From Stylophora pistillata (lineage: Eukaryota), in contig NW_019217852.1 of assembly GCF_002571385.2 (NCBI RefSeq), positions 340,134 to 404,133 on the forward strand: a stretch of DNA of 64,000 nt, written 5' to 3'. The notes below the pieces were generated by a model. It was not told the DNA's origin. It did no database searches and saw nothing but the letters and a program-made list of their open reading frames with translations. Each line of letters opens with the position of its first letter. The stretch's first letter is position 1. This document shows positions 886 through 33,800 of the stretch, piece by piece. The position numbers and the translations under genes are program-made.

Positions 886-2679
886 AGTTCTAGAAACTGA
901 AAACTCCTATGTTGAAATAGATACTCTAATTAATAAGATGAAAGTTAACTTCTAACTGTAATTATGTTTAGTCTGTAGTCGACTCCTAGAAAGGTCAAAT
1001 AGATACTTAAATTAATACTTGATGAAAGGTTAATTTCTAACTGTAATTTGTTTAGTCGCTAGTCTCTTTCTAAGTCTGTAGTTTTCCTTTTTCTGCTCTC
1101 ATGTTGTAATTGTATGTGAATATTATTATGTAAAATTGAGTAAAATTACTTTTCAATTGTCTGGCTTGCTGCAACTAGCTCTTCGCTATTTGCAAGCCAG
1201 CATAGTAATAACCACCTGATATTTACTTGGAAATAAAAACTTGGAACTTGGAACATACTCTTATTCTGTTTAAGTATATATCTGTATCCGTCATATCTGT
1301 AGGCATATTCTTGTATTAAATATTTTCTTTGGTACTGAGAAGGAGAATACACATTCAAATTTCTTAGTTTGGCCATCATTTCCTTTATTCTCGTGGTCTT
1401 TATAATGAATCAGAATGATTCAACCGTAGTACTATAAGGAAAAATTAGATACTGATAACTCTTGGGATTTAAAGAAGTAAAAATAAAACTTGCCACAAAG
1501 CACCTTGGTGTCCACTTTGACTGTGTGGTCAGATAATCATATTAGTATACCAGAGCCCAGTTGTTTGAAGGCCAATTAGTGCTAAACCAAGGATGAATTT
1601 TAATGTGGGTTTCTTTATTTTATGTTCAAAAGCCTATTTGGGATTATTTTTCCCTATTCTTTTGCAGCATCCAATTATCAACTTGTAGACAAAAAGAATT
1701 CTACTGAAGTTTCTTTTAAAGTTTTCAGATCTTAAATCAGTTTCCACACTAACCCTGGGTTAACTTGACCCTGCTAATTGAACCATACCAGTACATTAAG
1801 TTTGAAAAAAGTTAATCAGCAACTTTGGTGTTTCTTTAAAGGAGAGTCTCACCAATGAATATTCAAACTTTGCTGCAGGTTTAATATTTTTCTTTGTTTC
1901 AAGCCAGAAGTTTTTTCAATTGTAAAGTTAAGCTAACCCAGATTGTATAATGGATTTAAGTCAAAGTTACAAATAAGTAACAGCAAAGAAAGAAGAAAAC
2001 TCAGAGTAGGGCTTACTGGTCAAGTGGCTTTTATAATTGTAAAATTGGTTTGAGAGAAGGCATAGGGAGATCCACTCTAAATCCAGAAAGAGCAGAAAGT
2101 AATTTTTTTTCTTTGTAGAATATGTTGAATTATCTTTATTCCCACTCCTAACACAGAGGAAATTTTGTTTGAAATCTCCTTCCCCCTTCCCCCTTCCCCC
2201 ATCCTTGGAAAGAGATTTCATTCCAAGTGACCCTCAAGGGATGAGTAGGGAAATTTCCAGGAGTCACAAACAGTGGACAGGTTTTAAGTTCAACTTTACT
2301 CTGTGGCAGTGCAAGTCCCCTGATGAAGATCTCAAGGTTACCTTGGGTCAGTGATGTTCCACTGCATAAGCTCAACAGGGAAGGAATTAATAATTCAGCT
2401 AATTTCAGAAATAAGCTGTACACAAGGAATGTCAAGATCCCTGCCCACCAAGAGTAATAAATTTTGCAATACGTTTTCAGTCTTTGTAATACCCCTGTAT
2501 GATATATTGTCTCTCCATGAAGGTGCTTCCTTCCCCCCAAAGAGAAGATTGATCAGGTAAACAAACTAATTCCCTTCTTGGCAAGCATTATGAAATCTGC
2601 TCCTTCTTTGTGATTAAGTGAATGCCCTGGTTTTGATAAGCCAAATGTTTTCCACTTGATAGGTTTATTTATTAATAAT

Positions 2680-3247
2680 TTTACTACAACGCCAGTACTC
2701 CGATTCAGAATTCAAATCTCTAGTTATTGAAAAAACAATCTGAATCTTAACGTTACTACTAATACTATGTGTTAAGAATCGTGATAGCTCTTCTTTTATC
2801 CACTACTTTTCTGCTGGGAAAGACATCTCGAAACTGAAAGTTGCCGAGAGAGCAGTAATCCATCGTGTACACACTTTTACTACTACGCCGGTACTCCTTC
2901 AGAATTCAAATCGGTAGCTATTGGAAAAACAATCTGTATCTTAATGTTACTACTAATAGTATCAGTCAAGAATCTTGATAGCTAGCACATCACGTGAGCA
3001 CATCACGTGAACCACGTCAGGCTCGACGGACTTTGAACCTGTGGGGGCTTTACACAGGGTAGGGTAGGAAAGGAAAGCGTTTTCCTTTCGGTTTCTCAAT
3101 CCTATGGAAAACTTCTTTCGAAACTAAAAATTGCTGAGAGTGCACTTTCAAATTCCGAACAAATACTTTTAACTGGGGACTTTTCCCGGCCAAGGACACT
3201 CGGCTCCTGGCCAATCAAGCCGGAGTCTTTTATCTAGGGGATTCCCC
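2680..3247 (+). promoter_or_regulatory. STING-1 promoter: ISRE/IRF-like sites, tandem E-boxes, UPRE, CCAAT and two kB sites
   Basis: GAAACTGAAAG 2830-2840; TCACGTGA 2990-2997 and 3003-3010; CCACGTCA (= TGACGTGG on -) 3012-3019; TTTCCTTTCGGTTTC 3081-3095; GGGGACTTTTCCC 3175-3187; CCAAT 3211-3215; GGGGATTCCCC 3237-3247, ending 118 bp before the ATG at 3365. Confidence 0.7.
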
Positions 3248-3364
3248 AAGTAAATTGTGTCGCGAATTAAATCAATCTGCTTTACCCAATTTGCGCATTT
3301 CGGCTTGAACATCTACAAGAGTATCATAAGTATTGCGATAGATAGGAATATATTATTTTCCGCC

Positions 3365-4815
3365 ATGGCTGAGAATCTTCTACCCCGAGGAGATGACTTA
3401 GCTCAGCAAGAGAATAATGGCTTTGGACCACTTTTCAAGCGTCGTGGAAGAACTGCCGCAATCACTTCAGCTATCATAGGTGTGAGTAGTGGCGCGATGC
3501 TATTCTTAGCGGTGAAAGAGGAAGAGAAGAAGACTCACTTCCTGGTATTTACAGCAGCCCTGCTTACCCTCAGTTTCGCTTTCGGGGAGCTATTACGAAG
3601 ATTGTCCCTGGTGTCGGAAGAGATTCAACACAAACACACGCGACACCAAGGAAAGTGGAAGAGTGTTTTTAAGACAACTTTCACTTTCGACCATGGCGGG
3701 TGTATTTCACTCACCGCTATGTTTTCTGCTTTAATCTTGTGTTATCAGCTGTATGAACAATACGAGGTTTTCTCGCGTTCAGATTTCGCCATCTTGTTTT
3801 CAGTGAACTGTCTCGTGGTTCCGCAATTGTTGTTCCTTGTGGGTCTTCGACAGCTCTCTCCTGTGGAAACTTCGGATTTGAACGAAAAAGAAAATAAGAA
3901 CGTGGCCGATGGACTGGCTTGGAGCTACTACTTTGGTTATCTGAAGCTGGTGCTGCCGCATCTGAAAGATCAGATTGCCAAATCAGAGCAATTTCGATAC
4001 AAGATAAAAAAGAAAAAGCTTTTTATTTTATTGCCCAAAACGTGCTTCACCCATGCTGACATCGTTGACGCAGATCCCAGAGTAAAATGGGCGGGCAATC
4101 TGCCAGAGCTTAAGATAAGTAGGGGTGGAATTAAGGACAGAATTTATAAGCATGCGGTTCATAAGATAGAGATGCCCCGCCCAGATGGAACGATGGATGA
4201 GTACCACTTTATTCTGGAGTATGCCACATCTCTGATGACCCTTTATGATATGTCTCAGCATGCAGACGCCCCCTTAAGTCGCAAGGAGCGGGATCATCAG
4301 GTAGGATAATGTGTGGTATGTTCCCTTTGATTTTTTTTTTTTAAGATGATAGAGGACTATGATCTGATTTCTCTAAAGATTTATAAAGAATGTTGTGACT
4401 GGCCATCTTGGATATGATTTTTTGTGGACAGATGCATGTTAAGATATGTGGTTTGTTTACAGTATGCCTTATTTGGTTATCTGCTTAATCAAATATGAAG
4501 TGATTTTACTGCCTCTCAGATTTGCCTCCAACATGGCTTGTCGAGTGTTTTAATACAACACAGAGCAACACAAAACAATGCAGTCTAACTGAAACCTTTC
4601 TTCCATGTAACTTACAGGTGGTGTTGTTCATCCGAAAATTGAGGGAAATTCTGGATAAGTCTGAAGAATGTAGAGGTAGTTACGAGTTGGTGCCAATTTC
4701 AGGAAATGATCCAAATGAGATTGCAAATGTCCTGGTTGGAATGCATAATGCCGCCAACATAGAGGTGCTGGCCGGCAATCATGATCAAGCCAATGGAGTA
4801 ATCAGACCAGAGTAG
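3365..4815 (+). CDS. STING1: Stimulator of interferon genes paralogue 1 (TM-STING, 377 aa, two exons, no vertebrate-type C-terminal tail)
   Basis: Exon 1 3365-4300 (GCCATGG start), GT..AG intron 4301-4617 in phase 0, exon 2 4618-4815 (TAG). N-terminal hydrophobic helices, then [37 protein letters not shown] and ILEYAT motifs of the STING cyclic-dinucleotide-binding domain. Confidence 0.96.
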
Positions 4816-5705
4816 TGACAGTTTTATAAAGCAATGTTAATTCATTGTTGAGAACTCTGTAACATGTTACATAAAATTGCTGATGTATCATAGGTAAATG
4901 TTACATTCATCTAGGAATTGGGCAGAATTACAAGACCCTTACTTATTTATTTTTTTCTTTTCTAAGTTATTATTAAAGTTTATAAAGAAGGATGACTTGC
5001 CATTAAATAGTACTTGTAGAAATACTGATTGTACTCTTTAAACCTTAAACTTCTTGGTTTAATCGACCACCAAAAGGTAAATTGATAATATTTTACCCCT
5101 AATATAAATTTGATTGACACATCATAGTATTTCTGTTGTTCTAAACAATCTGGGAGGCCAAAAAGTTTTATGCATGTTTAAGAGAGAGATCAAGTATCCC
5201 TGTTCTTTATATGACCAAAAGGGACTTGATCTGTAACTTAATCATGTAGAGAGCCCAAACTAGTTGAACTGAATAAATGAAAATACCATATTATCTTCAC
5301 ATGTGAAAATAACACCATTACTATGGTTGCATAATAAATTGCACCTTTGACAGTGAAAGTGAAATGGTTTGATTTTTCATTGGTGTAAATATAATAAATA
5401 GAATATTACATGGCTGCTTAGAAATAGAAAATTTCTCTTCTCATGTTGATATTTTAGCTGTTCGCTTTGCTCACTCATGAAACATTTTTCAACACTTGAA
5501 GAGAAGTTTTGTATCTCTGCATGGCCGTGTAGTATTCTCTTTTTATTGGATGAAGATGGTTGTTGCACTCTAATTCTATGAGCATATTATTAAGAATGAA
5601 ACTCACCACAATGCACTTCATAACTTTGTGCATTCAGTTATTGAATATGGATAATTGTGCTGTTCTGTGCTTCTTTATAATAAAATAATTTATTTGTGTT
5701 TTTCT

Positions 5706-5836
5706 CGTTGCCATGTTCCCACCAACCCACAATTCCTCTATTCGCTCCGACAAAGGGCTAACGCTCGAAACGTCAGCTTTTGTAATCATTATGGTGGCCA
5801 ATTTACCATTTCAACTTTGTCGATATATCCAAATTA
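5706..5836 (+). mobile_element. Penelope-like terminal-repeat fragment with degenerate hammerhead motif
   Basis: cacaattcctctattcgctccgacaaagggctaacgctcgaaacgtcagc...ggtggccaatttaccatttcaac; same family at 18040-18290, 19321-19570 and the end of 22630-23130, the last attached to a GIY-YIG remnant. Confidence 0.65.
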
Positions 5837-7886
5837 TTTCTTTTATAATAAACCCTTGACACCCTAATGTAAGTATGCAGATTCCCCACCGTTTCTATGG
5901 TATAATGACAGGGAGAATTTTTTTGACAATCAGGAACTTCTTAAATTGGTTTAACACCTTTTTCTTTCATATCAGAAGTCCTTTCATGCAGTGTAAGATA
6001 TCTACATTGTACTATCAGTTAAAATTTTCTATTTTCAATAAACAGTAACCACTAAGAAAGATGTAAACTTAGGGAAAGCTTTTAAGTGATCAATTAGCCT
6101 TAATTGTAAGATCGTTTTGAAATAATTCATGCGAAGTCCACTCCCCCCTCCTCAAACCCTGCAGGTGCAGAAATTCTTTAAGCCTGCTGTGGATTATTTT
6201 GAAATATCCTAATCCTTACTGCTCTCACAAAGACAGTTTTGTTTTGGAATCCCTTCTCCCAAAAAGATTTTTCCTTGGAATAGGTTTTCATTTACCTAAT
6301 TTATATTTAAGAAAATTAGGGGTATTCTAGATTTCAAGTGATTGAGATGACCTCAAAATAATCCCTAGGGCTTCAAACAAAACCCCATTAAATCCCTGGA
6401 CCAAACTAAAGTTTGGTTTTATTTTATTCATAGAACTACAAGCCTGGTCAGGTCAATCTTCAGATTGTTTTGAATACCTGAAAAAGCCCTACTCAATTCA
6501 AGCTAACCAAAACAAAAAATACTTGACAGAATTTTATTACCTATAAAATCTAGATATTGAAAAATTTCACTAAATACTTCTTTATTTCACAGTATTCTTT
6601 CAGTCATGTATTTAATGTCCCTGTGTAATTTTTTCTTTAGGAAGGTGCTCCCTTCCTCCCAAGAGAAAAGTGATAACCTTAAATAATTTTAAATCTGAAT
6701 CCTCCTTGTTATCAAGTGAATACCCTTGGTGTTAATGAGCTCTCTGTTTTCTTTTAATCTCCAACTCCCAAGATCTGATTACTACTTCTCTCCTCTAGCT
6801 GCTACACCTGTTAATTAATCACAAGAATTTGGTGTTAGATTAATAATGGTAATTGAACTGAGTGGAGTGCAATTTGGGCTGAAATCATACGCATGATTTG
6901 AAATCACAAGTATGATTTCAGACCAAAATTGCACAACACGAGGTTCAATTACCGCTTTATTACATCCATTTTGAAATCGCCCAAATACAGGACTAATGGT
7001 GGATTAACATATTTTATTGATGCTGTACTGAGCCGGTTTTGAAATAAAAAGAGGAAGCGGAGACGCTTTTGCATCTTATTTTGTATGCAAAACAGAAAGA
7101 CTGACGTCATGTGTCAAAAACTCAGTCAAGCGTAAAATGATGCGATTTAGAGCAAAAAATGGTGCGATTCCTGAATAAACCGCACCAATTAGAGCCAATC
7201 AGATTACAGGGACCACCCGTGATTTAACAACTTCTGCCTCATAGGTTTGAGTATTCTCATCACCTGTTTGCTGGTTAATGGACAGATATTATAGGGAGAA
7301 GTTACATGTTAATAACCTCTGGGAGTTGACGGGTTAAAACGTATGGTTTATTAACAATTTTACTTCAACGCTAATACCCAAAGCAGAATCCAAATCCAAA
7401 GTTATTGCAAAGACAATCTGAATCTGAAGGTTACTAAAAATAACATCGGTCAAGAATCGTGACAAGATGATAAGACTGATAGCACTTCTTTTATCCTAGA
7501 ACACACCTCAAATTGAATTGGTCCACAGTATCACTTGCAGCCCACCCCTGGTATTTTTTCGAAACTCTGAGTCTTTATCATCATTGAAGTCACAATCGTA
7601 ACATTTCATGCCATTCGCCTCGCAAGGTGGCGTGTGCTTCAGGTAAGATCAACAGAAGTATGTGTAGGTGCATTTTCTGGTGGAACTGGGAAACATGATC
7701 CCATTTGGCACTAGAATAAAACGGCTCTTGATGCCCCTCGATTCTCCTCGGTGAAGTGCCGAAGTATAGCGGAGCCAGCAAGCCAATTTTAAATTCCCCT
7801 CAATATTTATGAAAGTATACCAGGTGAGAATACCATTGTAAGCCTGGAAGTGAAGTAATTTGTCTTCTGAATACGGCTATTACACA

Positions 7887-8167
7887 TCACGTGAGAACCA
7901 CATCGTGCTTGACCGACTTTCAACCTGTTGGAGCTCCACTCGGGGGTGGGAAAAGACGTCTTCCTTTCGGTTTCTCATTCCTAAGGGAAAGGTTTTTCAA
8001 AACTGAAAGTTGCTGAGAGAGCACATTTAAACATCGAACAAATAATTCAAACACTGAAGTCCTTTTCTGGGAATTTCCCTTGGGGGCTGAGCCCACTGAG
8101 CCGAAGGACAAACTGATGCTTGGCTCTTGGCCAAACGAGGCCAAAGTCTTTATTGCGGGGATTCCCC
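7887..8167 (+). promoter_or_regulatory. STING-2 promoter: E-box, ISRE-like sites, two kB sites
   Basis: TCACGTGA 7887-7894; TTTCGGTTTC 7965-7974; AAAACTGAAAG 7999-8009; GGGAATTTCC 8069-8078; GGGGATTCCCC 8157-8167, ending 115 bp before the ATG at 8282. Confidence 0.7.
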
Positions 8168-8281
8168 TGTTAAATCATGTCGCTGACTAAATCGATTTGC
8201 TTTACACAGGCTGGTGCATTTCGTTGTAAGCATCTTCACGAGTAAAACAATCGTTACGTCTGAGAGGAACATTTTTTCACC

Positions 8282-10560
8282 ATGGCTGATAATCCTCTTC
8301 CACGAGGGAATGACTTAACTCAGCAAGAGAATAATGGTTTTGGACCACTTTTCAAGCGTCGTGGAAGAACTACCACCGCTACTTCAGCTATCATGGTTGT
8401 AATTAGTGGCGCGATACTATCGCTCGCGGTGGAAGAGAAAGAAAAAAGGGAAGGGATTCATTCCCTGGTGTTTACAGCAGCCCTGCTTACCCTCAGTTTC
8501 GTTTTCGGGGAACTATTTCGAAGATTTTCCTTGGTGTTAGAAGAGATCCAACACATACGCACGAGATACCAAGGAAAGTGGAAAAGTGTTATAAACTAAG
8601 ACAACTTTCACTTTCGATCATGACAAGTGCATTTTAGTCGCGACCATCGCTGCCGCTTTCATCCTGTGTTATCAGTTGTATGAACAATACGAGGTTTTCT
8701 CTCACTCAAACTTCGCTATCTTATTTTCCCTGAACTGTTTCGTGGTTCCGCATTTGTTGTTCCTTGTGGGTCTTCGACAGCTCTCTCCTGTGGAAAAATC
8801 GGATTTGTACGAAAAAGAAAACAAGAATGTGGCCGATGGGTTAGCTAAGGGCTTCTACTTTGGTTATCTGAGGCTGGTGCTGCCGCAACTGAATGAAAAG
8901 ATTGCCGATTCAGTGGAATTTCGATATTTGTTAAACGCGAAAAAGGTTTTCATTTTACTGCCCAAAACGTGCTTCACCTGTGATAGCATCGTTGACGCAG
9001 ATTCCAGGGTAAAGTGGGCCGATGATCTCCCGCCGCTTGAAATAAGTAGAGGTGGAATTCTGAAAAGAATTTACAAGCATGCGGTTTATAAGGTAGAGAT
9101 GCCCTGCCCAGATGGAACGGTGGAAGAGTACCACTTCATTTTGGAGTATGCCATGCCTCTGATGACACTTTACGATATGTCTCAGTATGCAGACCCCCCC
9201 TTAAGTCATGAGGAACGGGGATCATCAGGTAGGCTAGTTTCTAGTACGTCCCATTTGATTTTCAAGATGATAGAGGCACTACAAACAATACTGTGACAGA
9301 TCCTTAGACAAGGTACTAATGGGTCAAGCTTTGCTGTGTATTTCTTGCTAGCCTCTCAGAAACACTACCTCATTCTACTCCATTCTGTGGCCAGTTATAG
9401 ACCCCATTTAAGTAAATTTTGGGTAAATGTAATTTTCACTATCCTAGTGTGACCGAGGCAGGTTCTGATGTTGTTATTTGAACAACGAGACAGACTTATA
9501 GCCACAATAAAATTTATTTATACAGGAAAGTACAAAAGAAATAATACTGATAAAAAGATAGGGTGATTGCAAGCAAATCCTCAGTAAAATAGGTCACTAA
9601 CTTGAGGTTACATGTACTGGAGTTACTTTTTCTGTGACCAAGAGGTTCTGAGCTTGTAAGTGCTGATCTTGACACTCTGAACTACTGAGTTAAACTAACT
9701 AACTGTACTTCTTTTATAAGGAATCGAACAATAGCAGGAAATTCTCTAAAATTTTGGAAGTTAGGTGTGATCATTCTAAAGGAAATTTATGATGCAAATC
9801 CTGTGTGTATGATAATTTGGTTATCATAGGAAATAGTTAGGTGTGATGGTGCAAAAGGAAATTTATGATGCAAATCCTGTGTGTATGATAATTTGGTTAT
9901 CATAGGAAATAGTTTCTGAAAATGTAATTCTAAAATTATAACAAAAAATATTGCAATGTCATGCACAATTGTGAGCCTGGTCACACTAGACTTAGTCACT
10001 TTCTGTTTATGCATCTACCTAACAAAGCCTTTTAAGTTGGTCATCCTAAAGTGAGTAGGCACATTTGACTGCAAATCTTTCCATTTTTAAATCCATACTT
10101 ATCATGATTTGGCTTAACCCCAAAATCCCAAAAATTTGCAATGCCATCATAAGAGCTCAATTGAAAAGCAACCCCATTATAGTAAATCCAGTTATAAAAT
10201 TGTAAATTAACCCATCCATTAGCATGTCCCCAGTAGCCAGCTTTTACTAGGAATTCCCATCTTCTTCCCCCCCCCCCCCACCCTATGTGGACTGGTCCCC
10301 ATTAATATGATTTGTTTAAGGTCAGACACAGCAGTCTCACTGAAACCTTTCTTCCATGTAATTTATAGGTGGTGTTGTTCCTCCAAAAATTGACAGAAAT
10401 TCTGGATAAGTCCGAAGAGTGCAGAGGGACTTATGAGTTAGTACCAATCTCAGGAAATGATCCACATGAGATTTCAAATGTCCTTGTTGGAATGCATAAT
10501 GCTGCCAACATAGAAGTGCACAATCCTGCACCTAATGAACTGCACAGACCAGAACAGTGA
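8282..10560 (+). pseudogene. STING paralogue 2, frameshifted in this sequence
   Basis: Colinear with STING-1: exon 1 8282-9228, intron 9229-10368, exon 2 10369-10560. A net +4 nt at about 8591-8597 (GTT ATAAACT AAG versus GTT TTT AAG) gives TAA at 8597-8599; an extra G in the run 9217-9220 (CGGGG versus CGGG) shifts the frame again just before the donor. Confidence 0.85.
9448..9985. mobile_element. Probable solo LTR inserted in the STING-2 intron
   Basis: Begins TGTGACCGAGGC and ends GCCTGGTCACA (TG...CA with short terminal inverted repeat); flanked by a CTAG duplication (9444-9447, 9986-9989); absent from the STING-1 intron; internal ~60-bp direct repeat in about 9778-9914. Confidence 0.7.
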
Positions 10561-11202
10561 CAGCTCTAAACAAAATAATTCTAACTGAATGTGAAAAAAC
10601 TCTGATATTTTGCAGGACCCCAATATAATAAATCAATAACATTCTTTAGCAATGCATGTGGGACTGAGAAGCCTTTCTTTAACTTTTTTTTTAGTTCTTA
10701 TTAACTGAGCGGGAGGTCTGTATGGGAGAATCTTGACCGAGGTCACCAGTACAGACCAAACGCAGTGAGGTCTGTACCAGCGACCGAGGTCTAGAAAGCA
10801 ACGGAACATTATATTCTTTGTATCTTTTTTTTCTAGACTGCTCTAAATGCCAGTCTAGATGGGAAAATCTAGAACGCTTTCGATATTGATTTCAGCCAAT
10901 CAAATTCGTGAATTCGGTAGTTCCCAGTCCTTGTGAGACACAGCCATATAATAACAGTGAGTATTATAGTTAACCCACAAGATGACTGATGTTAAATAGT
11001 GCTTGTAGAAATGCAGATCATTTTACTCCAAAAACCTCTTGATTTTCATTGACTAAGAAAAAAGAAACTTGTTGAAAATTATTTATTAAATTGAACCCTT
11101 ACAGCTTACTAATTGACAGCTTATAATATTTCTGTTGCTCTGAACAATATGGAATGCCAAAATGTTTTATGGAGGTTTAAGAAAGAGAACCCAGTTGTAT
11201 AT

Positions 11203-11760
11203 AGTAAGTAAGTAAGTAACAACTTTATTTACAGAGGGTAACACATAACAGTTAAAAACTGATGAACCGGTGGCCCTCTATCTTAAGTTAAAATTTTAAA
11301 AACTATTTACACTTACAAGAAAATAAAATAATAATAATAATAATAATAAAAAACCTGGATAAAATCTGGATATGCACAACTAAAAACTAAGCTAAGAGTG
11401 CTTGGATAAAAAATACTTTCGAACAGAAGATTTAAAAGAGCCAATGGAGTCTTTCTTTCGAATGTCTAAAGGAATGCTGATCCATAGTTTTGCTCCACTG
11501 GCCTGAAAAGTTTGCCCTCTTCCATTTTTCTATTATAGGAGGGGCACACTAAGTTATATTTTCTATAGCGACTGTGGTTCTGGTGTGTCGGTCTGAGTTT
11601 TTCGTTAAAAGTTCTTGTTATATAGCTCAGACAATTATTTTCATCTTTGATGTCCCTGAATATTAAACTAGTCTTTTTAAGGTTTAATTCTTCCTTAAGT
11701 GGCACCCAATCAAGTCATCTAAAAAGCATCTCACTTCTTTCACTGATATCAGCATCCAAG
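11203..11760 (-). mobile_element. Degenerate LINE 3' fragment with simple-repeat tail
   Basis: Minus-strand remnant (LDWVPLKEELNLKKTSLIFR...YNLVCPSYNR) resembles a LINE ORF2 C-terminus; followed by AATAAA and a (TTAC)n tail near 11203-11230. Confidence 0.55.
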
Positions 11761-12879
11761 ATTATTTATTATTATCCAAGATTATTAATAATTATTATTG
11801 TGAATAATTTACTGTAATGTAGGGGTTAGGATTCTCATTTCTGCGTTGCCTTTTCTAATGACTGCTTATAATTGAAGATTCTGTCCTCAGTTGTGTGTCT
11901 TTCAGAACAGCCAAGATCCTGTGAATCATCACTTGAAGGACCTACAATTGTAGACTGAGCATGCTCAATTTGCTGGTTGTTGCATTTAAATAAATTTTTG
12001 TCCATCATACCCTCTCTAATCGTTTTGGCATAAAGTAGTTTAAATTTTGGTTTATGTGAACATTTCTTTTTCCTTAACCCCTTCCTCAGAGATAATTGTG
12101 TATAGAATTCCCTTCCATTTTCAAACCCATTGAGAGGAAAAATGACGATCAGAGCTTTTCAAATACCCTCCCTACCCCATAATAATGACCCTTCAAGGGT
12201 GGGTAGGTGGGTGCATTTCCTTACAACACAAGTAGGAATCAGGTTTTCAGTTCAACTTCATTCTGTGGGTATTCACCTTTTTATAACGCAAAATTTGGAT
12301 TAGTTTTAGATGAGCGAAGAAAATTCCTAGAGATGAAAAACTACTTTCTAAGGACTCTTGGTAGCACCCTAAATAAGACATGAGCCGACAGAATCATGGC
12401 TCTGGAATATATTGAGATTTTAGAAAAGGTTCATGAAAATTTAAGTTGTTCGAAGTTCATACCTGCCCCCCGACGCCTCGCTTCCTGGCCAAATATTCTG
12501 TTTTCCGGACGATATCTCAGCTGCGGACATTATCAGCCGACATACCAGTTGCCCAAAGGGTTTTATCTACTAAATATTTTACAACATGTGCCCAGCTGAA
12601 CAGATCCCATGAAACTTAACGACATTTAAAAACTTAACTTGTATTCACATGCCGCAGAGATAAATAACCGCCTCTCTGAGGTATACTTTCCCCGACAATT
12701 TATTACCTCATGCAAATTTAAGTGATGTTTGAATTCTTTCGATTCATTCAAATGACCCTGCTTTGTCAATTTGCTCAAGTTCAGTCCGATATATCAATAG
12801 TAACTGTTCCACGCCGCGCCTGTTCATAAATTTTTCCATAGTTTATAGGTAAGCTTGCGGAGAAAACCGCTGCCAGCCG

Positions 12880-12909
12880 CCAATCAAAATCGTAAGGGGA
12901 TTCCCCTTA
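12880..12909 (+). promoter_or_regulatory. STING-3 promoter CCAAT box and palindromic kB site
   Basis: CCAAT 12880-12884; GGGGATTCCCC 12896-12906 inside the longer palindrome TAAGGGGATTCCCCTTA; ends 142 bp before the ATG at 13048. Confidence 0.7.
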
Positions 12910-13047
12910 AAGCGAACCCAATAAGTTGAAAACAAAATGCCATCTGCCACGCAAGCAATTCGAGATCCCTTTCGAAGGCGCAAAGAAGAAAAAAAAAAAA
13001 AACATTCTGAAAGGGCAAGCACTAGAAGATTCGTCCTCATTTGATGA

Positions 13048-14807
13048 ATGGATCAACAGGAAAATAACGGATTTGGACCGATTTTCAAGCCCCGCGGCAA
13101 GGCTGTCACTTTCGCTTCAGTAGTGATAGCCATTATATCTGGGGCCCTTCTTGTGTTTGCGCTGTGGGAGAGCGAAGATAAGGACGGGATAAACTTTGTG
13201 TTCTTTGCAACAGCCCTTCTTATGCTAAGCGTAATTATAGGTGAACTAATCAGAAGGGTGTCGATGCTAGCTGAAGAAATTCGACACAAGCAGACCAGAT
13301 ATCAAGGGGAATGGAGGCGAGTTTTCAGATCTACTTTCGCATTTGAATATGGTTCTTGCATTTTAGCTGTCGGTACCACTTCCGTTCTGTTTGTGTGTTA
13401 TGCTTTGTTGCAAAACTACGAAGCTTTTTTCCGCCTAGATTATGGCATCTTCTTTATTCTGAACTGTTTTGTGATACCACAACTGGTTTTCATCGTTGGT
13501 ATCAGAGAACCGAACACAGTGGAAGCAACAATGTTGAACGAAAGAAATAACAAGAACGTTGCTGACGGCTTTGCATGGAACTACTACTTCGGCTACCTAA
13601 AGTTGGTTCTTCCTAGGCTTGAGGCTCAGATTGCAAAATCGTCGGAGTTTCGTTACAAGATAACCAAGAAGAAACTTTACATCTTGGTGCCGAAAACATG
13701 TTATGTTTATGATAATATTGCCGACGCAGATCCCAGGGTTACTTGGGCCGGTGATCTTACACCGTGTAAAATCAACAGGGGAGGGATAAAGGAAAGAATT
13801 TACAAACAAGCAGTTTACCGCGTAGCGATGACTGACAAACATGAATACTTCTTCATTTTGGAATACGCTTCCAATCTTATGTCCTTGTATGACATGTCTC
13901 TCCATGAAGACGCTCCCTTGAGTCGCCAAGAGCGGGATGATCAGGTACATAAACATCGACAGTGGTTTAGCTGGGTCTGTACTCTTATCGACAACGATAT
14001 TCGTCAGTACTGTCGTCAAAATATTGTGGACTCACGAGGCGCAGCCGAGTGAGTCAGCAACAAATCAATGTCGATATTATTTTTACCACAACTTCAAATT
14101 GAAATAAAACGACTCTTTCAGTACATGACACGTTGCGTGACGCGTTAACGCGAGCAGCGTTGTCCTTGTTCTTATTGGTCAATCAGACTGCGACATTACT
14201 GCCAATTGTGGAAAAATTCAGTTTTTTCTTAAATGTTTTGCCATCCGAAGGGAAAGGGTTTGTCGGGAACTTCTGAAGGTGGGGAACCCTAGGTAGATGA
14301 GGTAACCCACCAAGCCGAGGTCGAAAAATAGCCCGAGTTTACAAACAATCTTACATCCACCGGATCTCGGGGAGAAGGATCTAGAGGTTGTTGGCATGCT
14401 AGCAAATGTAACATGAACGCGACTCCGGCTAGGTGGGTTACCTCACCTTGAGACGTTTACATGGCAAATTGTGACCCTGACAGGGTTACCCTACCTAGCG
14501 GACAACACTTCCTGCCCAAGCAGGTTACTCCACCCATCATGTAAATATCAAATTAAATCAAAGTAAATAAGAAATTATATGAGAAGGCGTGGTTTGTTTG
14601 TTTGTTTTTTTTTTTTACATGCAAATCGTTTTCTTGTAGGTTGTTCTTTTCATTCGCAAACTGAGGGAAATTCTTGAGGGTTGTAAAGAATGCAGAGGAA
14701 AGTGCGAAATAGTTCCCATTTCAGGAGATGAAAAATCAAAGATAGCAGATGTTCTGGTGGCAATACATAATGCTACTCAAGTGGAGTCAGATGAAGCCGA
14801 CCTTTAG
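13048..14807 (+). CDS. STING paralogue 3 (354 aa, two exons)
   Basis: Exon 1 13048-13944, intron 13945-14639 (same phase-0 position as the other paralogues), exon 2 14640-14807 ([29 protein letters not shown]...ESDEADL*). Motifs [37 protein letters not shown]. Confidence 0.95.
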
Positions 14808-16992: not shown

Positions 16993-17475
16993 CTACACTA
17001 CAGGAAATGTCATGTCTACTTTATCCCCAAGACCACAAGCTATAGTTTGTCCAGGCTTGACTTCCGAGACACCTTCCGGAGTCCCTGTCAAAATTAAATC
17101 TCCTTCCTCTAAAGTCATACTCTGACTGATAAAGCTGATCAAATAAGGAATGGTAAAGATCATATCTCGGGTGTTTCCATCTTGTTTTAGTTCTCCATCA
17201 ACTTTCAGCCAAATATGGACATTATCAGGTTCTGGAATCTCTGTCTTGGAGACGAATCTACTGACAGGCAATGCAGTATCAAAACCTTTAGCAAGTGTCC
17301 ATGGTTGACCCAGCTTCTTGGCTTTATTTTGAAGATCTCTTGCAGTCATATCAAGTGCAAGAGCATATCCCCCAACATAATCCATTGCATTGGATTCCGG
17401 AATAGACACGCCTGTCTTACTAATCACAACACCAAGTTCTACTTCATGGTGAAGCTCGTCACAGCCTGGAGGAAG
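16993..17475 (-). CDS. FAHD1-like terminal exon (canonical-type catalytic C-terminal ~160 aa); no private 5' exons found
   Basis: Acceptor ttgcag then LPPGCDELHHEVELGVVI...ALDMTARDLQ...PWTLAKGFD...GDLILTGTPEGV to the stop at 16993-16995; phase 0, compatible with the donor after exon 2 (21288) of the neighbouring copy. Confidence 0.85.
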   Translation of the reverse strand, partial: LPPGCDELHHEVELGVVISKTGVSIPESNAMDYVGGYALALDMTARDLQNKAKKLGQPWTLAKGFDTALPVSRFVSKTEIPEPDNVHIWLKVDGELKQDGNTRDMIFTIPYLISFISQSMTLEEGDLILTGTPEGVSEVKPGQTIACGLGDKVDMTFPVV

Positions 17476-17619
17476 CTGCAAGCAAAACAAATATGTAAAT
17501 GAGAGAATAGAAAATAAAAGTCTATGGATAAGTATGCCGTAGCAATAACGTTCAAAGAGTTCGAAAAAGCCTTAATTCTAGCCTCCAAAGTGTATAAATA
17601 TTTTTTAAAAATTGGGGGT

Positions 17620-17930
17620 CATAAGAATTGGACCAACACTCAAGGTCTTAAAATAATTGAGAAGAATTTGCTACCTTTCTATAACATCAAGAAATGGTTA
17701 GATATTCTAGTCTTCTCGGATAGGGACGAATAAATGGAGGTCCCGTCTCCTGCAGGGTTGGGGGTAGGAGACGTTAATTTCCCACGCACGAGATTACTGT
17801 GTGATGGATGTCCTCCCCTGGGGTGGGATGGGTGGGTTTACTGGGCCCGCAGTAATCGGCGCAAGCTGTTGCGGTGTCCCTGCCGGTTGGCGAAGCTAAA
17901 TAAATCATAAATCATAAATCATAAATCACA
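17620..17930 (+). mobile_element. SINE-like fragment (Nin/Deu-domain-like) with (ATAAATC)n tail
   Basis: cactcaaggtcttaaaataattgag...gtcttctcggatagggacgaataaa resembles recalled cnidarian SINE cores; tandem ATAAATC tail at about 17900-17927. Confidence 0.45.
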
Positions 17931-18039
17931 AACATTTCTTAGCCTAGTATAATTTTTTTATTTCACTTTAACCTCAACCTGATACTAAGAATGTTTGTCC
18001 CTTAGCTGGAAAAAATTTAAAATAATCAATACTTTCCAA

Positions 18040-18290
18040 TGAATAAAGGCTGATAGTTTCAAAAGAAACTGTTTGGGGCTGCGTCGGTAGGAGTAACGAA
18101 ATAATTTGGATATATCAAAAAAGTTGCCATGTTCCCACCAACAACGTAGCTCCATTCTCTGCCTTTAAAAGGACACACAACCCACAATTCCTCTATTCGC
18201 TCCGACGAAGGGCTAACGCTCGAAACGTCAGCTCTTGTAATCGTTACGGTGGCCAATTTACCATTTCAACTTTGTTGATATATCCAAAAT
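18040..18290. mobile_element. Penelope-like terminal repeat with inverted segment and hammerhead-like motif
   Basis: Shares atgaataaaggctgatagtttc...aaataatttggatatatcaa with 19321-19400; motif gctccgacgaagggctaacgctcgaaacgtcagc at 18199-18232. Confidence 0.65.
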
Positions 18291-19320
18291 ACTTTCTAAC
18301 ATATGGAATGTTTGTAACAATGCAGTTAATTTTCAACATTTAGCAATACAAAATTTGGAGCACTTGGTAGGCTTTCATTTTCATGGTACAGGCACGTAGG
18401 GTGGTCATTTTTTCAAGTACACACAAGTACATATAATCTAGAAACCTAAGTAAACTGAGCGAAAAAATAGAAACAATAGGCTATTTTACAGTTGTGTACT
18501 TAGTTGCCAAGCCTTTGATTCAGTGAGGCTAAAGATGACCTTGTTGTGATAGAGACCTGTATCTAGTTAGCATGATAACAAAGTGATTTACATTTGAAAG
18601 GCAGCAAGGTTTGTATCATAACAAGGTCATCCCTTGCCTCACTCCCGTTCAAAGGCTTAGCAACCAAGCACACAACTGTAAAATGGACTATTGCTAAAAA
18701 ATTTCAAAATTTTCTGGTCACTTCAAGTATGCACGTGTATATATGTGTATAGGATGCTACGTGCCTGTGGTAGGGGTTAGAGCTTTTAAAGGTGTGTTAT
18801 GTCACAGATCTGATATAAAGGAGAAACATAATGTTTGTATGTTGTATGATTTGATGACAAAACAGAAAAGAATTGTAAGAACAATATATTTGCAATTGAA
18901 AAAATTCACCCACTCAGGCTTTTTTTTTTTACCCTTTATATCCTTATAACAGTATGCATATGCTGTAAACTGTTCTCTAAACATTTCCGAGAATTCATTC
19001 AGCACTCAAGAACTTCTTCACTTTGTGATCATTATTTTAATTCTCATGACCTTAATGTGTGATTTAGGGATGACTTTGTACTTGGAGAAATTAGATGCTT
19101 GTCAAACTAAGAGGTCAAAGGGTTTATTATCTCATTTGCGCATCTAGATGAAGGTGTACCATCCTCACTGGTGGTATCACATAGAAAGTGAGCTTCCGGT
19201 ACAAGCATGTTTTTGAACATTTTAGAGAGGGACATACCCACTTTTTTAAGGGTGTTACCCCTCTCAAAGAAAAATTTCTTTATTACCCTTTGCATTAGAT
19301 CTGTGAACCTAAAAAATATT

Positions 19321-19570
19321 TATGAATAAAGGCTGATAGTTTCGAAAGAAACTGTTTGGGGCTGTGTCGGAGGGAGTAACGAAATAATTTGGATATATCA
19401 ACAAAGTTGAAGAGGTAAATTGGCCACCGTAACAATTACAAAAGCTGATGTTTCGAGCGTTAGCCCTTCGTCGGAGTTCACTCCAACAAAGGGCTAACGC
19501 TCGAAACGTCAGCTTTTGTAATCGTTACGGTGGCCAATTTACCATTTCAACTTTGTTGATATATCTAAAA
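19321..19570. mobile_element. Inverted pair of Penelope-like terminal repeats
   Basis: Hammerhead-like motif on - at 19444-19476 immediately followed by the same motif on + at 19481-19513; flanking arms are reverse-complementary. Confidence 0.7.
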
Positions 19571-19590
19571 AAAATATTTATCACAGCCCT

Positions 19591-21535
19591 TTAAGATGAC
19601 ACAGGGAAGGTCATTTCTATCTTGTTCCCCAGTCCACAAATTATTGTCTGACCCCTTTTCACTGGGGAACCTCCCTCTGGAGTTCCTGTTAAAATCAAAT
19701 CCCCTTCTTCTAATGTCATGTAACGGCTGACAAAACTGATTAAATGAGGAATCTTATAAATCATATCCTGTGTATTTCCATCCTGCTTTGTTTCACCGTC
19801 AACTTTCAACCACAGATGTACATCGTTTGGGTCTGTAATCGCTGATTTGGGTATAAATTCACTGACTGGTGTTGCTGTGTCAAAGCCTTTGGCAAGTGCC
19901 CATGGGTAGGTAACTTTAATGGCTTCATTCTGAAAATAGAAGGAAACATGACTTATCAGAATCCTATTTAGGATAATTACTTAACCGTTTAGCTCTCAAG
20001 ATCAGATGGTTAAATCTCCCCTCTACCTTCTATACATTTCCTTACAAATAAGTTTCGAGAGTTTGGTGTTAGATCAAGTTAAAAACTTCTACCTGATAAG
20101 TTTGAGTATTCTCATTACCTGTTTGCTGGAAAATGCATAAATACTATGATGAGAAGTTAGGGGCTAATTTAAAATGCAAAATGAGTAAAAGAGCTCAACT
20201 CTTACTTTATTTTTAGTATTCACTACAATAGAACACTTTGCAATACCTTGATAAAAATAAAAGTATATTCTAGATGATAGGAAAGATATACAGTCAATAT
20301 CTCGAGGTACTCATGAGCCTTGACAAAATTCACAATGTTTTAACAGTTATTGAGGTAGCATGATGTAAAAGGCTGAAAAAAAATCAGGGAAATAGTCACT
20401 GAGGTGTTAATAACCTATGAGCAGGCCTTCTTTTTCAAGAAGGGGGGGGGGTAATAAAAGCTTGAGGCTCTCTTCTCACGAGGACCAACAACTTTTACAT
20501 TGATCACTAACTTCCAACTAACTCCTAAAAATATGCATAATTGCACATTTGGTAAGTGATCACTGCTTTTTGAGCCAAAAGGCTAAAAAAGACTTACTTT
20601 TTCAGTTATAAGATCAAAATCAGTCATGTCTAGAGCCAGAGCATATCCTCCAACATGCTCCATAGCTTGAGACTCTGTAATAGTTTTGCCAGTTTTGCCA
20701 ATCACAACTCCAAGCTCTACTTCATGATAAATCTGATCACGACCCACTGGAATCTGTTGAAAGTGTTAAAAAATCATGATTTTGCGTGTGCTTGAGGATC
20801 ACAAGGTTTTATAAAACACTTCTTTGAACAACTAGTTAGTGTTAGCATCCTGTAGGGATTATGAAGGTTTGTGGGTACCATTTAATTCACATGCAACACC
20901 TGTCAAGAGTCAACTTCCAACACTATTAATGACATGGCCGACTCCATAAATGTTTATGACGTAAATCCCCTCTTCTGATTGGTTACTAGGGGTGCAAAAT
21001 ATTCAAAACAGGCCCCATTTTAACCTGTCTGATTTGCGATCATATATGTTGGCTACTTTAAACACAAATGTCTTACGCTTTGGCGTGAAACGTAATCACC
21101 ACGCTTTTCACATGAACAAGTGACCATTGAACCTCAACTCCTCCACAAAGGAGGTGCCACATAACCGTGTAGGGAATCCCCAAGCCAGGACTAAACTCTA
21201 ATTCTAAACAAAACACATTATCGCCAGTCGATATCTTTTTCAAGTCTCGATCCCACTGATACCTTTTACGCTATCTCGAGAACTTACCTTAATTTTTTCC
21301 CCCGGACTCAAATATGTTGACGTTGGTTTTAAAAAAATCAAGGGATCTTGAGCAGGAGGGGGCTGTTGTGGCGATCCGTTGGGCCTGAATTAACGAAAGG
21401 AGTCTACAAATAAGACACTGAAAAAGGTTTAAAAAAATAAATAAAAAAACAGACTAACCTGTAGTTTTTACCCACGCCGATAATTTTGCGTCCAAATTCC
21501 ACAAACCTTCTGAGATCTCGTCCTTGGGAAGCCAT
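19591..21535 (-). CDS. FAHD1: FAHD1-like fumarylacetoacetate-hydrolase-family protein, divergent copy (222 aa, four exons)
   Basis: Exons 21535-21459, 21384-21288, 20753-20598, 19929-19591; all GT-AG and phase-consistent. MASQGRDLRRFVEFGRKIIGVGKNY...PLIFLKPTSTY...YHEVELGVVIG...ALDMT...PWALAKGFD...GDLILTGTP. Confidence 0.9.
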
Positions 21536-30800: not shown

Positions 30801-33800
30801 TACATACTCCAAAGCCTATTAATGCATTTTAACCAAACAATCGGAAAGAGATATTGAACTTTAGAATATAGAGTAAATGGAGAGGAAGTGGCGATGTCAA
30901 AGGCTTCAAGCTCTTTAAAAACCCGCTAACAACAACCTTTCAGTCAAGTAAAAGAAGTCATTCCCTCAGCATTGCAATAGTTGGAATTACATAAGGAGCT
31001 CACTACTTCAGACTTAGTCAACTTGTTTATGAGTAATCAAGAAAGAATTTCTCCTTAGAATATCAATGCAATATCAAGCAGAAAACTAACAAGAATAAGG
31101 AAAAGAGAGGATCAGGTGATAATCAGGGCGGGGTTATTCAAAGCTGCGTTAAGTTAACCTAGTGTTAGCATGAAATTTGATTTCAGATCTGAAAGCTTTA
31201 GGAGAAAGTTCAGTTTAATTATTTTGTGTCTACAATTTGACGATCGGATGCTCTAAAAAGAACAGGGAAAATTATCTCATAAAGGTTCTTGAATAGAGAA
31301 ATTAGGAAACCTGAATCAAAATTCAACCCTGGATTAGTGCTAATCGGCCTTTGAACAACTGGACCCAGATCAGTTGATCCAATACCAAATTCTCCAAACT
31401 AACATAAGAATTGTATGGCAGACAGTAAGGAGAATTACAGATGAGATCTTGGGAGTGAAAGGGTTAATGACCAGTCCACCCTGCCCCTCTTACCTTAATC
31501 CTTTCCATTTGAGTACTAAATGGACAAAACAGCTCAAAAAATATGAGTCCAAGGGAAAAGATGTCTACCTTGTGGGAATATGGCTTTCCCTCCATCTGAA
31601 AGTAGTTAAGAAGAATGAAATGAAGGTCGGTTTGTACTGCACACAATAATGCTTTCTGTGCAGTCTTTGGGTAACCTCTCTTAAAGTAACTGTTAAATAA
31701 AAGTACAAAACTTGTTTTCATAAGCAGTAGTTTTGTAACATGGGCATTCCTTTCAAGTACAGGAACTGATCTATCACAATGAAGAACGAGTCCTTCAATT
31801 TTTTCGTTTAATAAATAAATTACCTCTACTAATTACAATTCAACAACTGTACAAAACTTACTGCTTAAAAAGCATTTCACAGAAAAAGTGTGTAACTTAA
31901 ACTTGACAAGCTACCAGTACTTACACTCAGTACACCTATGAGCTAATTTACACATTTAGCACCACAAGCAAGCTTCGCTGATTGTGCTAAAACTGGACAA
32001 TAGTTTTGTCACCTGTTCTGGGCTCATGTACAACTGTGTTCCAACTTGGCTTGTATGATTTGTGTCATCCATTAGAGAATCTACGCATACACCAAAGCAC
32101 AATTTTAAAAATGTAGTCTGATCATCACAATGCTGACCTAATAAATAACTTTCATGTACCAACAAAATCTTACTTTTTTCAAGCAAGACATAATTTACAA
32201 TTAGTAATGGATGATGCGTGACTTGGTCATCTCTAATCATGCTCCTAATAGTCCAGTTTGGTTTGACCCCTTGACCCATAACATAATAAACATGGTATGC
32301 ATCATCTGATTGGTCAATTCAGTTTCCAAACAGATACTTTATGAGGTTATAGGGCCCGCATGTCATTAGTTATGTCATAAAAGCAGTAGAATGCATTTTT
32401 CCAGGCTCTATACTCACAGTGATGAAGCCACTCACAAAGGTTATCAATCACTCACCTTTGGCTCACCATTTTTAAGCTTTCCCCATGTTCTCCCAACATC
32501 CCACATGGCTTAATCACATTACACAGCGCAGAAAAATGTGCACTATTACTTGACTAGCACATTATTTCTCCTTACAAAGCCACCCCCCGAATCACACATT
32601 CTGGCCAGGAAAATGAAGGAAATGATCACCAACTAAAGAAGCTCTACATGGTTAAACAAATTCTCCTTGTCAGCACGTTACAGAATGTATTAATGCGATG
32701 AATAAGCATACGGAAGTTGGGGTGTGAAGGGCTAACTGTTGCCATACCTTTAATGGGTGTGTCCAGGTTGTTTTCTGATGTGTGGGCTGTCACTAATCCA
32801 AAATCACCAACTTTCACTGAACCATCCAGTGAAAAGAAAATATTGGATGGCTGTGAAATAGAATAAAGAGATTGCGGCATAATTTAAACAACATAATTAC
32901 TTTGTTAATATTTTAAATTTGCTAAAGCTCTAACTGGAGGCAATATTTTTATTTAAAGTAAACTGGCCTGGCTGAAAGCAAATATATGAAAAAAGGGATT
33001 ACAAAGCTACCAGCCAGATATTTCATAAACCTGATATAGCAAATGACTCACTGCATCTGTAAACTTGTGCAATTACAAATTAAAATGAAACATTGCCTAA
33101 AAAGCCAGTTTGGTAGGACTCTTAATTACAAGCTGACTTTACGACACTCCTACCATTTTATCTCTTTTTATATGATTTGTAGAATTTCTCTTACCTTTAA
33201 ATCTCTATGCATAAGTCCTCTTCCATGAAAGTACTCAACAGCACCTAGGATCTGTAACAAGCACTTAATAATCAAATTTTCTATAAATAAAATATTAGAG
33301 TGCCATCATCATGGAAGAATGCATTTTACAGAAAGAATGCATTTTACAGAAATAGAAAGGTCTCTTTTCTCACATAACAACCTTGTTGGCACTTTTCCAA
33401 GTTCTAATCATGAACTAGTATTTTTCAATCCAGAGATTTTACTTTACATTTAGAGTAGATACTCAATTCATTGAAAATAGGCATCATAAACCAAGTCTTC
33501 AATTTGTCTGTTTGTTGCAATCATCACTAATTTAAAAGTAAAATGATACCTCTTCAAAGACATTCAGGCAGTATTTATGGTTCCTTTCATGATTAGCTTT
33601 GAGCCAGTCTTTCAGGCTTTCTTTCTGACAAAGCTGCATCTGGATAAACAGGTACAATGGTGCTGACAGCTTATCAGTATTGCACTGCTTATCCTGACAC
33701 TTATGTTTTTCTCCTAAAATAAAAACATATTAATAACATTTTAAGTCAGATAAGCAAAAACACCAAGAACTCATTTAGTGAGTTGAGCATTTGAAACTTG

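What the first reader, a model, noticed from the sequence alone, without database searches (positions are those of the whole stretch)
3237..12909. Identical palindromic kB site at a near-fixed position in all three STING promoters
Seen: GGGGATTCCCC at 3237-3247, 8157-8167 and 12896-12906, ending 118, 115 and 142 bp before the ATGs. It is kept even in STING-3, whose proximal promoter otherwise does not visibly align with the other two, and a CCAAT box precedes it in copies 1 and 3. Second kB sites occur at 3175-3187 and 8069-8078. Established: this 11-mer is a high-affinity p50-type NF-kB site. Inference: a positive-feedback loop (STING to NF-kB to STING) older than the duplications.
Basis: partly seen in the sequence, partly recalled or inferred. 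Interest (0 to 1): 0.7.

Follow-up and report, generated by a model that had tools for sequence, protein, structure and literature searches.

The report
Conserved NF-kB site in coral STING
Three neighbouring immune-sensor (STING) genes of a reef coral share a short DNA site of the kind the immune regulator NF-kB binds strongly; distant corals keep it too, so it is probably a real, old control element, though a self-amplifying loop is not yet shown.

Summary
GGGGATTCCCC occurs exactly three times in the window, once before each STING gene. The window is Stylophora pistillata: copy 1 is Sp-STING7, copy 3 is Sp-STING3 (PDB 8EFN), and copy 2 is a transcribed frameshifted pseudogene.

The footprinting test supports the site. 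The exact 11-mer lies within 1 kb upstream in 5 of 13 distinct STING genes from other corals, including one that groups with Acropora/Montipora. It is the only 11-mer shared by five non-alignable promoter groups and is absent from 94 kb of background. Published arrays show strong binding of its two 10-mers by anemone NF-kB.

The feedback loop is only partly supported. It is known in Drosophila. However, Nematostella STING is not among NF-kB-knockdown-dependent genes, and copies 1 and 3 respond oppositely to heat.

Verdict: an old NF-kB input within a composite promoter; a known kind of regulation, apparently unreported in corals.

The parts
3237..3247 (+). Main kB site, STING copy 1
   Evidence: array binding
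8157..8167 (+). Main kB site, STING copy 2 (pseudogene)
12896..12906 (+). Main kB site, STING copy 3
3211..3215 (+). CCAAT box, 21 nt before the copy 1 site (within GCCAATCAA, shared with copy 3)
12880..12884 (+). CCAAT box, 11 nt before the copy 3 site
3175..3187 (+). Second, non-canonical kB-like site of copy 1; aligns with the second site of copy 2
8069..8079 (+). Second kB site of copy 2 (fits the consensus; weaker on arrays)
3120..3135 (+). IRF-type element of copy 1 (label from recalled consensus GAAANNGAAA)
   Evidence: rank 3 of 127,970 positions with a matrix built from other corals only
2830..2845 (+). Upstream duplicate of the IRF-type element, copy 1
   Evidence: rank 4; blastn match to the copy 2 element
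7999..8014 (+). IRF-type element of copy 2
   Evidence: rank 5
3082..3098 (-). ISRE-like block of copy 1 (GAAACCGAAA on the minus strand); longest identical run between promoters 1 and 2
7961..7977 (-). ISRE-like block of copy 2
3365..4815 (+). STING copy 1 = Sp-STING7 / Spis6024; exons 3365-4300 and 4618-4815; intact, spliced in RNA
8282..10560 (+). STING copy 2 = Spis6025; frameshifts at about 8593-8596 (+4, early stop) and about 9217 (+1); spliced transcript seen
13048..14807 (+). STING copy 3 = Sp-STING3 / Spis6026 (PDB 8EFN), the receptor preferring 3'3'-linked dinucleotides; exons 13048-13944 and 14640-14807

Best explanation
The 11-mer is an ancestral NF-kB binding site kept by purifying selection in the proximal promoter of this scleractinian STING family. 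It is one input of a composite immune-inducible promoter: an IRF-type element about 70-150 nt upstream, often a CCAAT box, then the kB site. When the single p50-like coral NF-kB enters the nucleus (after cyclic-dinucleotide signalling, but also after other immune or heat cues) it binds here and, together with the IRF-type input, raises STING transcription and primes the pathway. Autoregulation is therefore likely but partial and context-dependent, not a dominant switch common to all three copies. SHOWN here: the site, its position, its conservation in other corals, the co-conserved IRF-type element and its absence in copy 3. SHOWN in papers: in-vitro binding of its 10-mers by anemone NF-kB; cGAMP-driven nuclear NF-kB and STING induction in Nematostella. 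INFERRED: occupancy in the coral, activating sign, cooperation with IRF, and STING as the upstream trigger.
For: (1) Only 11-mer, and the source of every 8- to 11-mer, shared by all five non-alignable promoter groups; 0 hits in 94,242 bp of background; Markov expectation 1.4-2.4e-4 per kb. (2) Exact site in 5 of 13 distinct non-window STING genes (9 of 18 loci); a consensus 10-mer in 7 of 13. (3) L008 carries it at -121 and groups with Acropora palmata and Montipora at 100/100; forcing it to the other side is rejected, p-AU 1.9e-88. That split is dated at 245 My or more (PMC5730576). (4) Array z-scores: GGGATTCCCC 13.9 Aiptasia, 13.2/15.4 Nematostella; GGGAATCCCC 14.7, 13.7/14.6; the standard probe GGGAATTCCC scores 12.0, 12.7/11.4 (PMC5700166 supplement). 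(5) Nematostella NF-kB activates a native kB-site promoter (TRAF3) in a site-dependent way (PMC10329013). (6) Copy 1 rises with NFKB1 and TRAF3 genes under heat: log2FC 2.25 against NFKB1 1.80 at 32 C (PMC12530282 supplement). (7) S. pistillata immune cells co-express STING and IRF1/2 (PMC8162421). (8) No consensus 10-mer in 1 kb upstream of 5 of 5 other start codons tested in the window.
Against: (1) 6 of 13 related genes have no consensus kB 10-mer in the upstream DNA held; one of them has only 101 nt. (2) Three of the five exact hits are distal (-390, -440, -843) and belong to one alignable family, so the outside evidence is three groups, not five. (3) nvSTING is absent from the NF-kB knockdown list, and the paper could not show STING-dependence of the cGAMP response. 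(4) Copy 3 falls (log2FC -3.27, base mean 6) in the 30 vs 36 C contrast where NFKB1 rises by 1.79, and all three copies fall in Table S12. (5) The pseudogene keeps the site. (6) Array probes have non-native flanks and use anemone, not coral, NF-kB. (7) The tree has no outgroup and the taxon of L008 is inferred from the tree alone. (8) The IRF label is a recalled consensus, with no binding data.
Confidence: 0.7

Rival explanations
1. One reading: a dominant positive-feedback loop, STING to NF-kB to STING, acting alike on all three copies through this site alone.
For: Identical site and position in all three copies. The loop exists in Drosophila, where a 200-bp Sting promoter reporter needs dSTING and Relish (PMC13144350). 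cGAMP drives nuclear NF-kB and STING induction in Nematostella.
Against: nvSTING is not in the NF-kB knockdown list, although knockdown was partial. Copies 1 and 3 behave differently under heat. Copy 2 cannot encode an intact receptor.
Confidence: 0.13
2. The site is functional but not an activating NF-kB input: it is held by NF-kB homodimers as a repressor or basal-level setter, or by another kB-site binder such as a HIVEP/Schnurri zinc-finger protein (recalled, not tested).
For: Cnidarian NF-kB binds like p50, and p50 homodimers often repress in mammals (recalled). Copy 3, which has only CCAAT plus kB, falls while NFKB1 rises. Conservation does not give the sign or the binder.
Against: Nematostella NF-kB activates a kB-site reporter and is needed for induction of 98 cGAMP-induced genes. 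Copy 1 rises with NFKB1.
Confidence: 0.14
3. Neutral inheritance or chance: copies 1 and 2 share the site by recent duplication and copy 3 by coincidence.
For: Promoters 1 and 2 are 75% identical, and four other identical runs of 10-17 nt exist.
Against: The site recurs in three further promoter groups with no blastn similarity to the window promoters, against an expectation of about 2e-4 per kb.
Confidence: 0.03

Closest known systems
Drosophila Sting promoter (200-bp reporter dependent on dSTING and Relish; PMC13144350 passages; 10.1101/852319 passages)
   Same: A STING gene whose proximal promoter reads NF-kB; STING mRNA is induced by cyclic dinucleotides.
   Different: The loop is shown functionally in flies and only inferred here. 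Here the promoter also carries an IRF-type element and belongs to a duplicated family with different ligand preferences.
Nematostella TRAF3 promoter kB sites (PMC10329013 passages)
   Same: Cnidarian immune gene with proximal kB sites; bound in EMSA, site-dependent reporter activation.
   Different: Three sites in one species with functional tests; here one site with cross-species footprinting and no functional test.
Nematostella STING induction by 2'3'-cGAMP (PMC8713801, section 6, passages and Dataset rows)
   Same: Related cnidarian STING, strongly induced by its own ligand.
   Different: No promoter element was found in the passages searched, and induction was not listed as NF-kB-dependent. 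I could not fetch the Nematostella promoter.
Mammalian MHC class I enhancer A kB site (recalled, no call)
   Same: As I recall, the same 11-mer, a classic p50-homodimer site that sits beside an ISRE.
   Different: Unrelated gene; resemblance from memory only, most likely convergence on the optimal p50 site.

Membership tests
NF-kB (p50-type) binding site | Fits the kB consensus | tested here: met
   GGGRNNYYCC in both registers and on both strands; GGGRNNNYCCC
NF-kB (p50-type) binding site | Bound strongly by cnidarian NF-kB in vitro | tested here: met
   Looked up in published array data: both 10-mers score above the standard probe for Aiptasia and Nematostella NF-kB. The 11-mer was not found in 2 of 3 supplementary files of PMC3630861; file 1 could not be searched.
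NF-kB (p50-type) binding site | Occupied by NF-kB in coral cells | not testable with these tools
   Needs ChIP or CUT&Tag
Conserved cis-regulatory element | Kept in related promoters whose flanks have diverged | tested here: met
   5 of 5 non-alignable groups, 5 of 13 outside genes, 0 in 94 kb background
Conserved cis-regulatory element | Lies upstream of the transcription start | tested here: inconclusive
   Only contigs were available; they cannot show starts
STING-NF-kB positive-feedback loop (Drosophila type) | STING mRNA induced by pathway ligand | tested here: inconclusive
   Met in Nematostella.
STING-NF-kB positive-feedback loop (Drosophila type) | Induction depends on NF-kB | tested here: inconclusive
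   Not met in the only cnidarian knockdown data, where nvSTING is absent from sheet S1H, but knockdown was partial and the species differs; untested in coral
STING-NF-kB positive-feedback loop (Drosophila type) | STING activates NF-kB in this organism | not testable with these tools
   cGAMP activates NF-kB in Nematostella; STING-dependence was not shown
IRF element / ISRE | GAAANNGAAA-type motif, conserved | tested here: met
   ISRE pattern in 10 of 15 promoters against 0.26 per 500 bp in background; leave-out matrix ranks; not met for copy 3
IRF element / ISRE | Bound by a coral IRF | not testable with these tools
   No binding data found
STING genes | STING TM and ligand-binding domains in one frame | tested here: met
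   Copies 1 and 3; not met for copy 2, which is frameshifted

The most novel reading that the evidence does not exclude
Stony-coral STING promoters carry a 245-My-old dual IRF plus NF-kB module, the same pair of factor families that drives vertebrate interferon responses, wired directly onto the sensor itself in an animal without interferons. After duplication the module was partitioned: the Sp-STING7 promoter kept both inputs, while Sp-STING3, the receptor that prefers bacterial-type 3'3' dinucleotides, lost the IRF element and kept only the NF-kB (antibacterial-arm) input. Redundancy of the two inputs would explain why single NF-kB or IRF knockdowns did not block STING and antiviral gene induction in Nematostella.
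Probability: 0.25. Interest if true: 0.72.

Novelty: new member of a known kind. Interest (0 to 1): 0.48.

Why it matters
Which factors induce STING and the interferon-like gene set in cnidarians is open: NF-kB, IRF and STAT knockdowns each left most of the cGAMP response intact. These promoters give defined, footprinted elements that can be mutated singly and together. They also give a natural comparison: two paralogs with the same kB site, one with and one without the IRF-type element, which differ at the pocket residues that set ligand preference and in heat response. NF-kB rises in heat-stressed corals, so a direct NF-kB input to STING would link thermal stress to nucleic-acid sensing. The loop itself is not surprising because Drosophila has it; its depth of conservation and composite structure in corals are the new part.

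Tried and rejected
No whole genome is held, so there is no genome-wide count of the 11-mer at promoters. Viral contigs gave no STING relative. Genome contigs gave one coral-like contig inside a MAG, L018, without the site; it is counted as a miss but was fetched after the k-mer test.

TSS mapping failed: all 24 runs listed were contigs, and contigs cannot show starts. The low RNA depth over 2927-3353 and the RNA pieces of copy 3 starting at 13010-13022 are not used as evidence.

Helical phasing of CCAAT and kB (21 vs 11 nt) was considered and dropped, because other corals have 23-24 nt. Residual homology of the copy 3 leader is weak: p 0.016 to copy 1, 0.26 to copy 2. GAS-like motifs (7 of 15 promoters) and TGACGT (7 of 15, two of them just before the anchor in coding DNA) were not convincing against background. 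Synteny with FAHD1 neighbours gave no hit in the short flanks held. The first IRF matrix had a mis-registered copy 2 site; only the leave-out matrix is cited. The control promoters used wrong coordinates for two genes and were redone. The tree was the quick fallback; one search is the careful tree on 23 rows (copy 2 and several near-duplicate loci left out).

Literature: paper searches listed no report of kB or IRF sites in coral STING promoters, judged from listings and the passages read; subscription papers are not covered. The Cell version of Li et al. 2023 was not held and the Kozlovski data archive was too large; both may say whether these genes are cGAMP-induced. Three look-ups of earlier scan findings returned nothing.
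Full report
OBSERVATION. The 11-mer GGGGATTCCCC is at 3237-3247, 8157-8167 and 12896-12906 and at no other place in the window. With one mismatch there are 8 strand-hits at 5 places, against a shuffle mean of 0.37. The ATGs are 118, 115 and 142 nt from the site end. Copy 3 starts about 11 codons later in the homologous frame; from the shared QQENNG anchor the site ends at -157, -154 and -148. CCAAT precedes it in copies 1 and 3 (21 and 11 nt). The second site of copy 2 fits the kB consensus and that of copy 1 does not.

WHAT THE GENES ARE. Copies 1 and 3 carry STING TM and ligand-binding domains. Copy 3 is identical over the 185 residues of PDB 8EFN, which is Sp-STING3 of Stylophora pistillata, the receptor preferring 3'3'-linked dinucleotides (10.1101/2023.02.22.529553, passages). 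Copy 1 is identical to the 377-aa protein named STING protein 7 of S. pistillata and has the S and T pocket residues of the 2'3'-preferring type (preference inferred). Copy 2 has a +4 and a +1 frameshift relative to copy 1. The +1 is covered without gaps by spliced RNA contigs in 2 of 3 RNA-like runs; the +4 is not covered by a listed piece. Published gene models Spis6024, Spis6025 and Spis6026 match copies 1-3. Contigs of a fourth run with even, DNA-like depth span all three sites with no difference, so they are not assembly artefacts.

IS IT MORE THAN SHARED ANCESTRY? Promoters 1 and 2 align at 75% outside the site, so keeping 11 of 11 has p about 0.044, and other identical runs of 10-17 nt exist. 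That pair is weak evidence. Promoter 3 shows no similarity upstream of the site (z -0.5 and 0.2), so the within-window case rests on one independent comparison.

FOOTPRINTING. A metagenome scan gave 17 loci encoding relatives at 60-68% identity, and a genome scan one more. They collapse to 13 distinct genes or alleles.
- The exact 11-mer is within 1 kb upstream in 5 of 13: L001 at -80, L006-8 at -121, L012/13/16 at -390, L002 at -440, L015 at -843.
- A consensus 10-mer is present in 7 of 13; L002, L003, L010 and L015 have a proximal GGGGTTTTCC at -143 to -151.
- Six of 13 have none: L004 (101 nt held), L005, L009, L011/14, L017 and L018. L009 and L017 show degenerate versions at the aligned position.
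By blastn the promoters form five groups with no mutual similarity. Counting all k-mers without prior choice, the site is the only 11-mer in all five groups, and every shared 8- to 10-mer is part of it. It has 0 hits in 94,242 bp of other DNA, and Markov models expect 1.4-2.4e-4 per kb. The outside evidence is three groups, two of which look weakly homologous in a multiple alignment. No consensus 10-mer lies in 1 kb upstream of 5 of 5 other start codons in the window.

AGE. In a careful tree of 23 proteins, L008 groups with Acropora palmata and Montipora at 100/100, apart from the Stylophora, Orbicella, Oculina and Desmophyllum sequences. Moving it across is rejected (p-AU 1.9e-88). Copies 1 and 3 fall on one side of a branch with support 78/88 only. 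Stylophora is robust and Acropora complex, a split of at least 245 My (PMC5730576, passages); the clade membership of the other genera is recalled. The root is a midpoint and the taxon of L008 is inferred from the tree. The simplest reading is that the site predates the window's duplications.

BINDING. In the arrays of Mansfield et al. (PMC5700166, passages and supplement rows), anemone NF-kB binds like human p50. The two 10-mers of the site score z 13.9 and 14.7 for Aiptasia and 13.2-15.4 for Nematostella. The standard EMSA probe scores 12.0 and 11.4-12.7. The second sites and the GGGGTTTTCC variant score 6.3-8.2 for Aiptasia. I saw 7 rows, not the whole distribution, and the flanks are not native.

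A SECOND ELEMENT. Other corals have GAAAGTGAAA-like DNA 69-83 nt before the kB site. A matrix built from seven non-window promoters ranks 3120, 2830 and 7999 third, fourth and fifth of 127,970 window positions; ranks 1-2 lie in STING exon 1 of copies 1 and 2. The best position in the 500 nt before copy 3 ranks 260. Copies 1 and 2 also share a 17-nt ISRE-like block, their longest identical run. The IRF label rests on a recalled consensus. S. pistillata immune cells co-express STING and IRF1/2 (PMC8162421, passages).

THE LOOP. For: in Drosophila a 200-bp Sting promoter reporter needs dSTING and Relish (PMC13144350, passages). In Nematostella, cGAMP moves NF-kB to the nucleus and induces STING by log2FC 8.06 in polyps and 3.9 in embryos (PMC8713801, section 6 and dataset rows). 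Nematostella NF-kB activates a native promoter through its kB sites (PMC10329013, passages). Copy 1 rises under heat with NFKB1 and TRAF3 genes: 2.25 at 32 C, 2.87 at 34.5 C, 1.42 at 33 C (PMC12530282, section 14 and supplement).

Against: both Nematostella STING ids are absent from the NF-kB knockdown sheet, which does list the control gene GBP-806. The authors could not show STING-dependence of the response. Copy 3 falls by 3.27 where NFKB1 rises by 1.79, at a base mean of 6, and all three copies fall in Table S12. mRNA of NFKB1 is not NF-kB activity, and heat is not cGAMP, so these data limit rather than refute the loop.

MECHANISM. Most likely the site is an NF-kB input within an IRF + CCAAT + kB promoter that primes STING expression, with autoregulation partial and dependent on context (0.7). 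Rivals are a dominant uniform loop (0.13), a repressive or non-NF-kB use of the site (0.14), and neutrality (0.03).

NOVELTY. NF-kB control of a STING promoter is known in flies, and kB-site promoters are known in Nematostella. Eight paper searches listed nothing on coral STING promoter elements. Also consulted by passages, without direct bearing on the site: PMC13319465, PMC10917227, PMC5298905, PMC3630861, PMC13042239 and 10.1101/852319. The Cell paper with coral cGAMP RNA-seq was not seen, and bioRxiv supplements were closed. I file this as a new member of a known kind, interest 0.48. The bolder case, an ancient IRF plus NF-kB module partitioned between STING paralogs of different ligand preference, has probability 0.25 and interest 0.72.

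Noticed in passing
window 8282-10560: STING copy 2 is a spliced, transcribed pseudogene with two frameshifts and a changed pocket motif (LAKGFYFGY against LAWSYYFGY). The public model Spis6025 skips the broken part, so counts of seven S. pistillata STING receptors may deserve a check.
   Followed up: partly
window 2990-2997, 3003-3010, 7887-7894: TCACGTGA E-boxes about 400 nt upstream of copies 1 (two) and 2 (one); only one other occurrence in the window (25618). MITF/TFEB/USF-type by recalled consensus; not seen in the other corals' promoters.
   Followed up: partly
window 3673-3688 and 8600-8615, minus strand: The two best IRF-matrix hits of the window lie inside exon 1 of STING copies 1 and 2 (codons TTFTF); coincidence or an exonic element.
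   Followed up: no
window 21171-21181 and 45611-45621: One-mismatch kB sites (GGGGATTCCCT) about 350-440 nt downstream of the start codons of an FAHD1-like gene and a PERK-like gene, apparently intronic.
   Followed up: no
window about 31400-46057, minus strand: A PERK/EIF2AK3-like kinase gene (best PDB match EIF2AK3 for one exon) lies about 17 kb from the STING trio; a STING-PERK pathway is described in mammals (recalled).
   Followed up: partly
window 2679-2789 and 2875-2983; 7347-7462: A 111-nt direct repeat (86% identical) upstream of copy 1, with a homologous single copy upstream of copy 2; the second IRF-type element lies between the two repeat units.
   Followed up: partly
L002 330-775, L012 2520-2900, L015 720-1555: These promoters seem to hold the module twice in tandem: a distal copy with the exact 11-mer and a proximal copy with a weaker variant. 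L003 has unrelated, repeat-like DNA where L002 has the distal copy, and L005 lacks the whole module that its relative L001 has.
   Followed up: partly
L013 and L017: Two STING genes on one contig, so tandem STING arrays occur in other corals too; L013 has the exact site and L017 does not.
   Followed up: partly
L018: A coral-like STING gene sits in a contig of a bacterial MAG in the genome collection, probably host contamination.
   Followed up: no
window 16993-21535, minus strand: Two tandem FAHD1-like (FAA hydrolase) genes follow the STING trio.
   Followed up: no
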